From: a phage
Length of the DNA: 64,000 nt
Sequence record: OZ470804.1
Strand: one strand, 5' to 3'
Each line of letters opens with the position of its first letter. Position 1 is the stretch's first letter. Positions 58,835 to 59,150 of the stretch are shown piece by piece. A program made the position numbers and the translations under genes. Under the pieces are notes generated by a model. That model saw only the letters and a list, made by a program, of their open reading frames with translations, searched no databases and was not told where the DNA came from.

Positions 58835-58869
58835 AAAGAAAAGGCGAAGGTTCGATTCCTTCACTCGGC
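58835..58869 (+). other. tRNA-like 3' half (T-arm + acceptor strand) without upstream 5' half
   Basis: GAAGG-TTCGATT-CCTTC followed by ACTCGGC; possible 5' partner GTCGAGT lies downstream at 58873. Confidence 0.3.
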
Positions 58870-59150
58870 AGATGTCGAGTTGGTGTAATGGTAGCACTTA
58901 AGATGATAAATAACGGTCTGGTAATCATCTTTGTAGTAGCTTATGTGGCTAATTATGTCGTCCCATGAGTGCCGATGAATTTCCTTAGCATGATTCTAGA
59001 TTAGCTTAATAGGAAATGACTCTACAGACCCTTTAGCAAGGTCTGCGTAGGTTACTGCAAAGATGATTTAATGGAAGTGTAGCAGAATGGTGATGCGGCA
59101 GACTTTTAATCTGACAGGCGATGGGTTCGAATCCCATCTGAACCTCCAAT

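What the first reader, a model, noticed from the sequence alone, without database searches (positions are those of the whole stretch)
58835..59148. Separated tRNA halves: possible permuted, interrupted or decayed tRNA genes
58835-58869 is a canonical T-arm plus 3' acceptor strand (ACTCGGC) with no 5' half upstream, yet 4 nt downstream at 58873 starts GTCGAGT with a D-arm-like segment that would pair with that acceptor strand. 59100-59148 holds another T-arm + acceptor + CCA whose 5' partner I cannot find within 100 nt. These may be circularly permuted or intron-containing tRNAs, or pseudogenes.
Basis: seen in the sequence. Interest (0 to 1): 0.55.

Follow-up and report, generated by a model that had tools for sequence, protein, structure and literature searches.

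The report
Phage Y-RNA-like tRNA mimic, plus fused tRNA
The "separated tRNA halves" are the tRNA-shaped core of a conserved small RNA that travels with a Ro60-like protein gene in FelixO1-type and many other phages, so the long-suspected RNA partner of that anti-defence protein can now be tested; the second "orphan" T-arm is just two neighbouring tRNA genes fused by an 82-base deletion.

Summary
Both observations are real, but they are different things.

**(1) 58846-58898: a permuted tRNA-like core.** The order is T-arm, then a 7-bp acceptor-like hairpin closed by AGAU, then a D-arm. It sits inside a module (58795-58920) closed by the helix AGACCGUU/AACGGUCU, with CAGCAA just after the 5' strand.
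- This is the topology of YrlA-type Y RNAs.
- The gene 0.9 kb upstream on the same strand (DUF2828+DUF7788) has a Ro60 fold.
- The module signature (AGR-helix, CAGCAA, YCU-G) recurs beside this protein family in distant phages:
  - pattern scan: 66 hits on the protein's strand, 2 on the other;
  - covariance model: 78 hits on the protein's strand, 0 on the other.
- Fourteen independent modules carry the same permuted core.
- The acceptor-like stem shows compensatory changes across three Ounavirinae genera.
- The window holds four modules (58238, 58405, 58709, 58795) scattered among its tRNAs.
- It is not a permuted tRNA gene: it has no anticodon loop.
- Binding to the protein is inferred, not shown.

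**(2) 59073-59148: a chimera.** It joins the tRNA-Lys(UUU) body to the tRNA(CAU) 3' acceptor strand through an 82-nt deletion between identical T-arms. No database relative has this deletion, and the acceptor stem is broken.

Overall: a new variant of a known kind, moderately to highly interesting.

The parts
56484..57899 (+). Gene for a 471-aa Ro60-like protein (Pfam DUF2828 + DUF7788; vWA C-terminal domain). It is the presumed protein partner and the orthologue of Bas63 gp130.
   Evidence: Pfam hits. PHROG 850 'RNA-binding protein'. AlphaFold model with pLDDT 84 and pTM 0.85. The Foldseek top 11 PDB hits are all full-length Ro60/TROVE, E 2.6e-8 to 2e-6. The PhageMaP preprint reports the same fold for Bas63 gp130.
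58238..58305 (+). Module M1: short Y-RNA-like hairpin (AGACCAA...CAGCAA...TTGGTCT-G) between tRNA-Glu and tRNA-Met.
   Evidence: Signature scan. Covariance model R1 gives 44.8 bits (this sequence was in the training set). Aligned in A4.
58405..58458 (+). Module M2: short Y-RNA-like hairpin (AGACCGT...CAGCAA...ACGGTCT-G) between tRNA-Met and tRNA-Asn.
   Evidence: R1 gives 44.2 bits (training sequence). A4.
58709..58776 (+). Module M3: short Y-RNA-like hairpin (AGACCAA 58709-15, CAGCAA 58719-24, TTGGTCT 58769-75, G 58776).
   Evidence: The closing helix is 100% paired in 9 Ounavirinae sequences (helix 4).
58795..58920 (+). Module M4, the whole module: closing helix AGACCGTT 58795-58802 / AACGGTCT 58912-58919 followed by G 58920; CAGCAA 58805-58810; 4-bp anticodon-stem-like helix 58813-16 / 58899-902. 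It encloses the permuted tRNA-like core.
   Evidence: MFE fold. Signature scan. Helices 6-12.
58822..58844 (+). Variable-arm-like hairpin of M4.
   Evidence: Fold. Helix 9 is 86% paired and differs in Mordin/HP1.
58846..58862 (+). T-arm of M4 (GAAGG TTCGATT CCTTC).
   Evidence: Sequence. Partial Rfam tRNA hit at 58842-58862. Stem pairs (helix 10) never vary in the 9 sequences of A5; one loop position differs in Sf14.
58863..58880 (+). Closed acceptor-like hairpin of M4 (ACTCGGC - AGAT - GTCGAGT).
   Evidence: Helix 11 is 100% paired, and 3 of 7 pairs change on both sides across Felixounavirus, Mooglevirus and Suspvirus. The loop is GCCAAACA in Mordin/HP1.
58882..58898 (+). D-arm of M4 (stem GTGT/GCAC plus a G.U pair; loop AATGGTA containing GG).
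   Evidence: Helix 12.
58923..59068 (+). Long hairpin directly 3' of M4: a 23-bp stem closing a multiloop. It occurs in two sequence versions among relatives. Its function is unknown, and it ends 4 nt before the tRNA-Lys 5' end.
   Evidence: Helix 13 is 98% paired with 4 pairs changed on both sides. About 190 of 252 records carry the alternative interior.
59073..59148 (+). Chimeric tRNA: body of tRNA-Lys(UUU) fused within the shared T-arm (about 59122-59135) to the 3' acceptor strand + CCA of the neighbouring tRNA(CAU). 82 nt are missing relative to relatives.
   Evidence: Alignments. Four broken acceptor pairs. Fold. The 12 listed best of 288 database matches all need two pieces spanning 287-363 nt for this 206-nt query.

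Best explanation
**What it is.** The element at 58795-58920 is a non-coding RNA module of the Y-RNA / YrlA kind. It consists of:
- a closing 5'-3' helix (AGR... / ...YCU, followed by G);
- a conserved single-stranded CAGCAA just inside the helix;
- in this copy, an 'effector' domain that mimics a tRNA opened in the anticodon loop (variable arm, T-arm, closed 7-bp acceptor hairpin, D-arm).

**How it probably works (inferred steps).**
- It is transcribed with the phage tRNA operon from promoters just downstream of the Ro60-like gene.
- It is cut out by the enzymes that mature the flanking tRNAs.
- The helix/CAGCAA part is bound by the phage Ro60-like protein encoded 0.9 kb upstream.
- The tRNA-shaped part presents an intact T-loop/D-loop elbow to tRNA-recognising factors such as RNase P, CCA-adding and modification enzymes, or a nuclease/exoribonuclease. 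This would be analogous to bacterial Ro60-YrlA-PNPase particles.
- Three shorter modules (M1-M3) lacking the tRNA mimic lie in the same operon.

**What is shown.**
- the structure, supported by covariation;
- family-wide recurrence of the module;
- strict strand and position linkage to the protein gene;
- the Ro60 fold of the protein.

**What is inferred.** Transcription, processing, protein binding and function.

**Second feature.** Separately, 59073-59148 is a non-functional fusion of tRNA-Lys(UUU) and tRNA(CAU). It arose by deletion between their identical T-arm sequences.
For: **Fold.** The MFE fold gives the permuted cloverleaf in both sequence versions, with z = -5.1 and -4.5.

**Covariation across 9 Ounavirinae.**
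- 93.7% of cells are paired, against at most 51% when partners are slid.
- 12 pairs change on both sides, against 2-5 in slid controls.
- 0 of 500 shuffles reach these values.
- The acceptor-like helix is 100% paired with three different sequences.
- U.G pairs fix the strand as +.

**Protein.** The neighbouring ORF has a Ro60 fold. It lies on the same strand, 0.9 kb upstream. That matches the YrlA criterion of Chen et al. 2014, PMC4201824.

**Permuted core in distant loci.** In 75 loci holding the protein at 39-48% identity, the strict T-AS-D core is found 11 times in 8 loci. One more relaxed-scan hit (L020:2052) makes 12 cores in 9 loci. All are on the protein's strand, and none overlaps an ARAGORN tRNA.

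**Module signature in distant loci.**
- The signature gives 66 hits on the protein's strand and 2 on the other, against 1-4 in shuffles. 49 of the 66 lie within 1 kb of the gene.
- Covariance model R1 gives 78 hits at E<=1, all on the protein's strand. They include many loci not used for training.
- All 14 independent permuted cores have C(A/C)GCA 25-43 nt upstream of the T-arm.

**Literature.** PhageMaP (10.1101/2024.10.10.617714) independently found Bas63 gp130 to be Ro60-like. It suspected that a Y RNA lies among the adjacent 'tRNA genes'.

**Chimera.**
Against: - No expression, end-mapping or binding data exist for this RNA.
- The YrlA hallmark GNCGAAN0-1G is absent as a conserved motif. 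The local GGCGAAGG overlaps the T stem and varies among relatives.
- No Rfam family matches the modules.
- The protein resembles Ro60 only at fold level. Pfam gives DUF2828/DUF7788, not TROVE, and there is no sequence hit to PDB Ro60.
- gp130 alone protects T7 from Ppl, so at least that activity does not need the phage RNA.
- Only about 9 of 75 distant loci show the permuted tRNA core within the fetched flanks.
- The pattern scan required helix complementarity, so covariation of the closing helix across distant loci is partly circular. Strand bias and the hits of the model in untrained loci are the non-circular part.
- One module (L064:5734-5834) encloses what Rfam scores as a complete tRNA. 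That also fits a leader/trailer processing role.
Confidence: 0.68

Rival explanations
1. Operon punctuation or processing element. The modules, with their tRNA-like core and the 23-bp hairpin, would be RNase P / RNase III / RNase E recognition structures. They would shape maturation or stability of the polycistronic tRNA transcript and work independently of the Ro60-like protein.
For: - The modules lie between tRNAs in one apparent transcription unit.
- The 7-bp acceptor-like stem is the kind RNase P cuts in M. smegmatis YrlA.
- 4 of 14 cores encode N-CCA right after the 3' strand.
- One distant module brackets a full tRNA like a leader-trailer helix.
- The 23-bp stem is long enough for RNase III (established knowledge).
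Against: - Only 25 of 75 distant loci have any tRNA nearby, yet about 50 have modules hugging the Ro60-like gene.
- The invariant CAGCAA and AGR/YCU-G features look like a protein-recognition site rather than a generic nuclease site.
Confidence: 0.17
2. Decayed remnants: the 3' part of one tRNA gene and the 5' part of the next (or of a tandem duplicate), left by deletions, with no function.
For: - The cluster demonstrably suffers such deletions, for example the Lys/CAU fusion and the warpig deletion.
- A tandem duplicate would automatically give complementary acceptor strands and a CCA-containing loop.
Against: - T-arm, D-arm and closing helix are almost invariant across three genera, while the acceptor-like stem changes by compensatory substitutions.
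- The same topology inside the same module signature recurs in unrelated phages.
- The fold z-score is -5.
Confidence: 0.07
3. A genuine circularly permuted tRNA gene, whose transcript is circularised and re-cut to yield a normal tRNA.
For: The 3' half lies upstream of the 5' half, with a perfect acceptor match and canonical T and D arms.
Against: - There is no anticodon loop or anticodon. The outer sequences form a closing helix instead.
- There is no bulge-helix-bulge motif.
- Bacteria lack the splicing endonuclease pathway (established knowledge).
- Family members exist without any tRNA-like part.
Confidence: 0.02
4. Acceptor and coding pieces of a two-piece (permuted) tmRNA-like RNA, perhaps serving the tag-encoding RNA found 400 nt downstream.
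For: - The topology equals that of permuted ssrA precursors.
- A conserved tmRNA-like tag ORF (ANDNVFLAVA*) with no tRNA-like domain of its own lies at 59313-59345.
Against: - There is no G3.U70 pair (C3-G70 here, A3-U70 in Mordin).
- A full D-arm is present, unlike tmRNA.
- No conserved ORF exists in the adjoining hairpin, whose two versions differ.
- Three tRNA genes and a promoter separate it from the tag RNA.
- ARAGORN and Rfam tmRNA models do not hit it.
Confidence: 0.03

Closest known systems
YrlA-type bacterial and phage Y RNAs partnered with Ro60/Rsr (Chen et al. 2014, PMC4201824; M. smegmatis, S. Typhimurium, mycobacteriophages)
   Same: - The tRNA-like domain has the order variable region, T-arm, closed acceptor-like stem-loop, D-arm.
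- It has canonical T- and D-loop nucleotides.
- It is encoded near a Ro60-type gene and on the same strand.
- A shorter companion RNA lacks the full tRNA mimic (like YrlB).
- It has a 7-bp acceptor-like stem, as in M. smegmatis YrlA, which is cut by RNase P and receives CCA.
   Different: - The conserved motif is CAGCAA next to an AGR/YCU-G helix, not GNCGAAN0-1G.
- The partner protein is a DUF2828/DUF7788 protein recognisable as Ro60 only by fold.
- The modules are embedded in a tRNA operon, in four copies.
- An extra 146-nt hairpin follows.
- Neither binding nor modification has been shown.
Thermus phage phiLo Yrl1/Yrl2 with phiRo60 (PMC12135203; PDB 9KOP, 9L5Y)
   Same: - It is a phage-encoded Ro60 fold with several adjacent small RNAs.
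- Each RNA is built as a 5'-3' stem flanking an internal loop that carries a short conserved motif.
- phiRo60 is the best structural match of the window's protein.
   Different: - The phiLo RNAs carry CGAA, and that paper describes no tRNA-like domain in them (term absent from its text).
- The protein is a recognisable TROVE family member.
- The host and phage lineage are unrelated.
Circularly permuted tRNA genes (Cyanidioschyzon merolae and other algae; from my own knowledge)
   Same: The 3' half is encoded upstream of the 5' half, with a short linker between the acceptor strands.
   Different: Those genes encode complete tRNAs, with anticodon arms and BHB processing motifs. This element has neither, and it lives in a bacterial virus.
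Two-piece (permuted) tmRNA of alpha-proteobacteria and cyanobacteria (Rfam RF01849, RF04321)
   Same: The T-arm + 3' acceptor strand lies upstream of the 5' acceptor strand in one precursor.
   Different: There is no G3.U70, no tag reading frame and no pseudoknots. A true D-arm is present.

Membership tests
YrlA-type Y RNA | tRNA-like domain in the order V region, T stem-loop, closed acceptor-like stem-loop, D stem-loop | tested here: met
   Folds. Strict scan. Pair counts (T, AS and D helices 96-100% paired; AS shows compensatory changes).
YrlA-type Y RNA | Encoded within about 4 kb of a Ro60 orthologue, on the same strand | tested here: met
   The ORF 56484-57899 (+) ends 0.9 kb upstream. 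Its Ro60 fold comes from AlphaFold + Foldseek. Caveat: it is an orthologue by fold only. Pfam says DUF2828/DUF7788.
YrlA-type Y RNA | Conserved GNCGAAN0-1G motif near the 5' end (presumed Ro60 contact) | tested here: not met
   The only match, GGCGAAGG at 58842-58849, overlaps the T stem. It reads GGTGAAGG, GGAGAAGG or GAGAGAAGG in relatives. The conserved motif is instead CAGCAA at 58805-58810, present in all modules.
YrlA-type Y RNA | tRNA elbow nucleotides (U8, A14, G18 G19, U54 U55 C56, A58) that allow T-loop/D-loop docking | tested here: met
   Read from the sequence: TG after the acceptor strand, D-loop AATGGTA, T-loop TTCGATT. These are near-invariant in the 9 sequences of A5; a few loop positions differ in Mordin/HP1/Sf14.
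YrlA-type Y RNA | Bound by the Ro60 protein; carries tRNA modifications | not testable with these tools
   This needs RIP/EMSA and modification mapping.
Any curated RNA family (Rfam 15) | Score at or above a family's gathering threshold | tested here: not met
   No family other than tRNA is reported over the modules in the window or in 11 distant loci.
Circularly permuted tRNA gene | The halves reconstitute a complete tRNA with an anticodon arm; BHB motif at the junction | tested here: not met
   The outer sequences form a 4-bp stem, an internal loop and an 8-bp closing helix. No 7-nt anticodon loop is present.
Two-piece tmRNA | G3.U70 alanine identity pair and a tag reading frame after the 5' acceptor piece | tested here: not met
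   The pair is C3-G70. No ORF is conserved between the two hairpin versions. ARAGORN and Rfam tmRNA models are silent here.
Canonical tRNA (for 59073-59148) | Seven-pair acceptor stem joining the 5' and 3' ends | tested here: not met
   Four of seven pairs are non-standard. The 3' strand CTGAACC belongs to the neighbouring tRNA(CAU) of relatives, whose 5' strand is GGTTCAG.
Ro60/TROVE protein (for ORF 56484-57899) | HEAT-repeat ring plus vWA domain fold | tested here: met
   The Foldseek top 11 are all Ro60, aligned over 498-554 columns (alignments spanning the protein), TM 0.40-0.61.
Ro60/TROVE protein (for ORF 56484-57899) | Sequence-level membership (Pfam TROVE; HMM hit to solved Ro60) | tested here: not met
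   Pfam gives DUF2828 + DUF7788 only. phmmer and a profile search against PDB find no Ro60.

The most novel reading that the evidence does not exclude
The AGR-CAGCAA-YCUG modules are a previously undescribed, widespread class of phage Y RNAs dedicated to DUF2828-type Ro60 proteins.
- In FelixO1-like phages, the tRNA-mimicking copy (M4) would be cut by RNase P in its acceptor loop and given a CCA end.
- The resulting Ro60-like RNP would recruit or divert host tRNA-handling or RNA-decay enzymes as part of the phage's counter-defence (the protein already counters Ppl).
- The family probably arose from junctions of tandem tRNA genes.
Probability: 0.3. Interest if true: 0.8.

Novelty: new variant of a known kind. 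Interest (0 to 1): 0.62.

Why it matters
- **The open question.** Ro60-Y RNA particles are conserved from bacteria to humans, but their function is poorly understood. Known phage examples are few and lie in hard-to-manipulate systems.
- **What this provides.** It identifies the concrete RNA candidates for the Ro60-like protein of FelixO1-type coliphages and Salmonella phages.
  - This protein already has a genetic phenotype, as a counter to the Ppl defence.
  - Its RNA partner had only been guessed to hide among the 'tRNA genes'.
- **Wider reach.** It supplies a simple sequence/structure signature that finds related modules next to the same protein family in about two thirds of the distant phage loci examined. 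It also links an uncharacterised Pfam family (DUF2828) to an RNA.
- **Annotation.** These elements are currently unannotated or mis-annotated, for example as a 131-nt 'tRNA-Thr' or as a hypothetical protein.
- **Practical note.** This genome has lost tRNA-Lys(UUU) and one tRNA(CAU) through a fusion that gene finders still call a tRNA.

Tried and rejected
- **Group I intron or intron-containing tRNA.** No Intron_gpI or other hit at E<=10. The downstream T-arm's acceptor strand does not match the upstream 5' half.
- **Competing 8-bp hairpin.** I noticed AAGATGAT/ATCATCTT (58900-58931) by eye. The MFE and covariation favour the long-range 23-bp helix instead.
- **Relaxed T-AS-D scan.** Allowing mismatches and weak T-loops mostly returned noise in coding sequence. 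It added only L020:2052.
- **Plain k-mer strand counts and an unconstrained 'CAGCA + any helix' search.** These were not discriminating. Specificity came only with the AG.../...CU-G ends.
- **Sequence searches of the protein against PDB.** They gave nothing, so structure prediction was needed.
- **Literature.** Searches for DUF2828, 'tmRNA + Felix O1', 'YrlA + phage' and 'TROVE + phage + tRNA-like' found no description of this RNA. The Sim et al. 2020 review could not be fetched.
- **Converse association test.** I considered scanning IMG/VR with a degenerate module pattern. I rejected it because chance matches would swamp the capped output.
- **tmRNA link.** ARAGORN finds no tmRNA in the window or in three relatives.

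Full report
**Context.** The window is the tRNA region of a FelixO1-like phage (Felixounavirus). An 801-nt query around the finding matches Salmonella, Escherichia and Shigella Felixounavirus genomes at up to 98% identity. ARAGORN finds 22 tRNAs, all on the + strand. Rfam finds nothing but tRNAs at gathering score.

**Observation 1 (58835-58905).**
- The sequence shows, in order:
  - a canonical T-arm, GAAGG-TTCGATT-CCTTC (58846-58862);
  - ACTCGGC (58863-58869);
  - AGAT;
  - TG;
  - a canonical D-arm, GTGT-AATGGTA-GCAC.
- The two 7-nt strands pair completely, with one U.G pair.
- No tRNA is called there.

**Observation 2 (59100-59148).**
- ARAGORN and Rfam call a tRNA-Lys(UUU) at 59073/59076-59148. 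The anticodon sits at an odd position, and the Rfam alignment marks four of seven acceptor pairs as non-standard.
- Alignment with relatives explains why. Relatives carry tRNA-Lys(UUU) followed 4-6 nt later by a tRNA(CAU), and both contain (GA)TGGGTTCGAATCCC in the T-arm.
- The window lacks the 82 nt between these repeats. The Lys body is therefore joined to the 3' acceptor strand CTGAACC-T-CCA of the CAU tRNA.
- The true 5' partner, GGTTCAG, is in the deleted segment.
- The 12 listed best of 288 database matches all need two alignment pieces spanning 287-363 nt for the 206-nt query. No listed relative shares the deletion, which looks private to this genome or its assembly.
The cause is a deletion chimera, not permutation.

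**Structure of the first element.**
- The block 58644-59072 between tRNA-Tyr and the chimera is conserved in 252 phage records.
- Phage warpig lacks everything upstream of about 58783, so the minimal element is 58783-59072.
- Its MFE fold (-88 kcal/mol, z = -5.1, 0 of 200 shuffles as good) is a permuted cloverleaf:

| Part | Coordinates |
|---|---|
| Closing helix | AGACCGUU 58795-802 / AACGGUCU 58912-919 |
| Anticodon-stem-like helix (4 bp) | 58813-16 / 58899-902 |
| Variable-arm hairpin | 58822-44 |
| T-arm | 58846-62 |
| Closed acceptor-like hairpin | 58863-80 |
| D-arm | 58882-98 |
| Separate hairpin with a 23-bp stem | 58923-59068 |

- About 190 of the 252 records have a different sequence inside that long hairpin, yet they fold the same way (z = -4.5).
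- There is no anticodon loop. This cannot be a permuted gene for a real tRNA.

**Covariation.** I aligned nine sequences from three Ounavirinae genera: Felixounavirus, Mooglevirus (Mordin, HP1, Sf14) and Suspvirus (SUSP1). I then counted pairs for the projected structure.
- 93.7% of cells pair, against at most 51% when partners are slid by 1-3 columns.
- 12 pairs change on both sides, against 2-5 in slid controls.
- No shuffle of 500 reaches the observed values.
- The acceptor-like helix is 100% paired with three different sequences: ACTCGGC/GTCGAGT, ACCCTTC/GAAGGGT and ACACG/CGTGT.
- The 23-bp stem is 98% paired with four double changes.
- The T-arm stem and the closing helix never vary; the D-arm stem varies at one pair.
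- G.U pairs fix the transcript strand as +.

**The neighbouring protein.**
- The ORF 56484-57899 ends 0.9 kb upstream on the same strand. It hits Pfam DUF2828 and DUF7788 and PHROG 850 'RNA-binding protein'. It has no sequence match to solved structures.
- An AlphaFold model from 33 homologues (pLDDT 84, pTM 0.85) finds only Ro60/TROVE proteins as its top 11 PDB matches, over the full length. These are Thermus phage phiLo Ro60, Xenopus and human Ro60, and Deinococcus Rsr (E 2.6e-8 to 2e-6).
[quoted passage not shown] It showed that gp130 counters the Ppl defence. It speculated that some of those 'tRNA genes' are Y RNAs, without identifying any.

**Comparison with Y RNAs.**
- Chen et al. 2014 (PMC4201824) define YrlA RNAs by three features:
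  - a tRNA-like domain ordered V, T, closed acceptor-like stem-loop, D;
  - a location within 4 kb of Ro60 on the same strand;
  - a GNCGAAN0-1G motif near the 5' end.
- In M. smegmatis the 7-bp acceptor-like stem is cut by RNase P and receives CCA.
- The window's element meets the first two criteria.
- It does not meet the motif criterion. GGCGAAGG at 58842-49 overlaps the T stem and is not conserved.

**A family signature.**
- I fetched 80 viral loci encoding relatives of the protein. 75 of them share only 39-48% identity.
- A strict scan for T-arm + perfectly paired hairpin + D-arm found the same topology 11 times in 8 distant loci. A relaxed scan added L020:2052. All are on the protein's strand, and none overlaps an ARAGORN tRNA. 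Shuffles give 0.2 hits.
- Folding these with their flanks revealed a shared frame:
  - a closing helix beginning AG(R) and ending (Y)CU, followed by G;
  - CAGCAA 1-4 nt after the 5' strand.
- Searching for that frame alone gives 66 hits on the protein's strand and 2 on the other, against 1-4 in shuffles.
  - 38 of 75 loci have at least one hit.
  - 49 of the 66 hits lie within 1 kb of the gene.
  - Spans run from 56 to 254 nt.
- The helix sequence differs in almost every locus.
- Because that scan required complementarity, I built a covariance model from 26 short modules and searched both strands of 0.94 Mb.
  - All 78 hits at E<=1 are on the protein's strand.
  - They reach about 50 of 75 loci, including many not used in training.
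- All 14 independent permuted cores have C(A/C)GCA 25-43 nt upstream of the T-arm.
- Rfam recognises none of these modules.

**In the window.** The signature occurs four times: M1 58238-58305, M2 58405-58458, M3 58709-58776 and M4 58795-58920.
- Each lies between tRNAs, and all share AGACC.../...GGUCU-G.
- Only M4 contains the tRNA mimic.
- Promoter-like sites lie at 57918-46 and 58009-38, just after the protein gene. No + strand terminator-like site occurs before the next strong promoter at 59241-69. Co-transcription with tRNAs Pro to Ile is therefore likely, though inferred.

**Interpretation.**
- The most economical reading is a Y-RNA-like family that partners the DUF2828-type Ro60-like proteins of phages. 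M4 is the YrlA-like, tRNA-mimicking member, and M1-M3 are YrlB-like companions.
- The frame parallels the phiLo Yrl RNAs, which have a 5'-3' stem flanking a loop with a CGAA motif (PMC12135203).
- Four of 14 cores carry N-CCA-A directly after the seventh acceptor nucleotide: Mordin/HP1, L069:7563, L082:7843 and L082:10527. About 0.2 would be expected by chance.
  - This fits RNase P cutting with exposure of a CCA end.
  - It also fits an origin from junctions of tandem tRNA genes, which would automatically give complementary acceptor strands.
- Binding, processing and function are not shown.

**Caveats.**
- gp130 alone rescues T7 on Ppl.
- The effector domain is variable: none, T-arm only, permuted core, or in L064:5734-5834 a body that Rfam scores as a complete tRNA.
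- A role in tRNA-precursor handling therefore remains a serious alternative.

**Rejected readings.**
- A true permuted tRNA: there is no anticodon arm.
- A group I intron: no Rfam hit.
- A two-piece tmRNA: no G3.U70, no tag, and a full D-arm.
- Neutral tRNA debris: conservation and compensatory change argue against it.

**Verdict.** The first element is a new variant of the Y RNA / YrlA kind and identifies the missing RNA partner candidates for a phage Ro60-like anti-defence protein. The second is an ordinary deletion chimera that gene finders still label tRNA-Lys.

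Noticed in passing
window 59241-59475: A tmRNA-like 'message' RNA.
- A near-consensus promoter (TTGACA-17-TATAGT, 59241-59269) precedes GCAAACGACAATGTTTTTCTGGCAGTAGCTTGA (59313-59345), which encodes ANDNVFLAVA*.
- It is conserved in Mordin, REP7 and VpaE1. The only changes in the tag are silent (GAC>GAT; stop TGA>TAA).
- The hairpin after the stop shows compensatory changes.
- Rfam hits are sub-threshold: tmRNA_permuted 31.3 bits, tmRNA 15.4 bits.
- ARAGORN calls no tmRNA here or in three relatives, and I found no tRNA-like domain belonging to it.
- A Moogle genome note (PMC4319497) reports an ARAGORN ssrA call in a FelixO1-like phage.
   Followed up: partly
window 59476-59557: An odd 82-nt tRNA-like gene that ARAGORN does not call (Rfam tRNA 31.2 bits).
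- Its anticodon loop is CUUCUAA (UCU, Arg).
- It has a vestigial D-arm and a 22-nt extra arm.
- It has a G3.U70 pair, A73 and an encoded CCA.
- Mordin and REP7 have an ordinary tRNA-Arg(UCU) at this position. VpaE1 shares the odd version.
   Followed up: partly
window 58923-59068: A 146-nt hairpin directly after module M4, with a 23-bp, covariation-supported stem and a multiloop interior. It exists in two quite different sequence versions among Felixounaviruses: about 60 records are like the window and about 190 have the other version. There is no Rfam match and its function is unknown. The stem is long enough to be an RNase III substrate.
   Followed up: partly
L064:5734-5834 (IMG/VR contig 3300026097_000074): One AGR/CAGCAA/YCUG module encloses a sequence that Rfam scores as a complete tRNA in normal order (5753-5824, 52.9 bits). 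The closing helix therefore acts like a leader-trailer pairing around a tRNA. This suggests the module family may also handle real tRNA precursors.
   Followed up: no
L006 (REP7, OQ174506.1) 801-931; L089 (HP1, OK539913.1) 856-984: Public records mis-annotate the element. REP7 carries a 131-nt 'tRNA-Thr GGT' ending at the acceptor-like strand. HP1 carries a 'hypothetical protein' CDS over it. Most records leave it blank.
   Followed up: yes
window 61682-61891: A fifth match to the module signature (AGAGCCATT..CAGCAA...GATGGCTCT-G, 9-bp helix) lies inside the 185-aa ORF 61638-62195. It may be chance.
   Followed up: no
window 59573-59919 and 60509-60961: Two small HNH-type endonuclease ORFs are interspersed in the tRNA cluster. 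The first is annotated as HNH endonuclease in relatives. Relatives differ by insertions and deletions of such genes and of single tRNAs (tRNA-Asp is absent from the window; warpig lacks Asn-Tyr-Asp). The cluster is evidently a hotspot of rearrangement.
   Followed up: no
L026:11696-11922: A group I intron (Rfam 71.5 bits) in a distant phage locus fetched for the protein comparison. It is unrelated to the finding.
   Followed up: no
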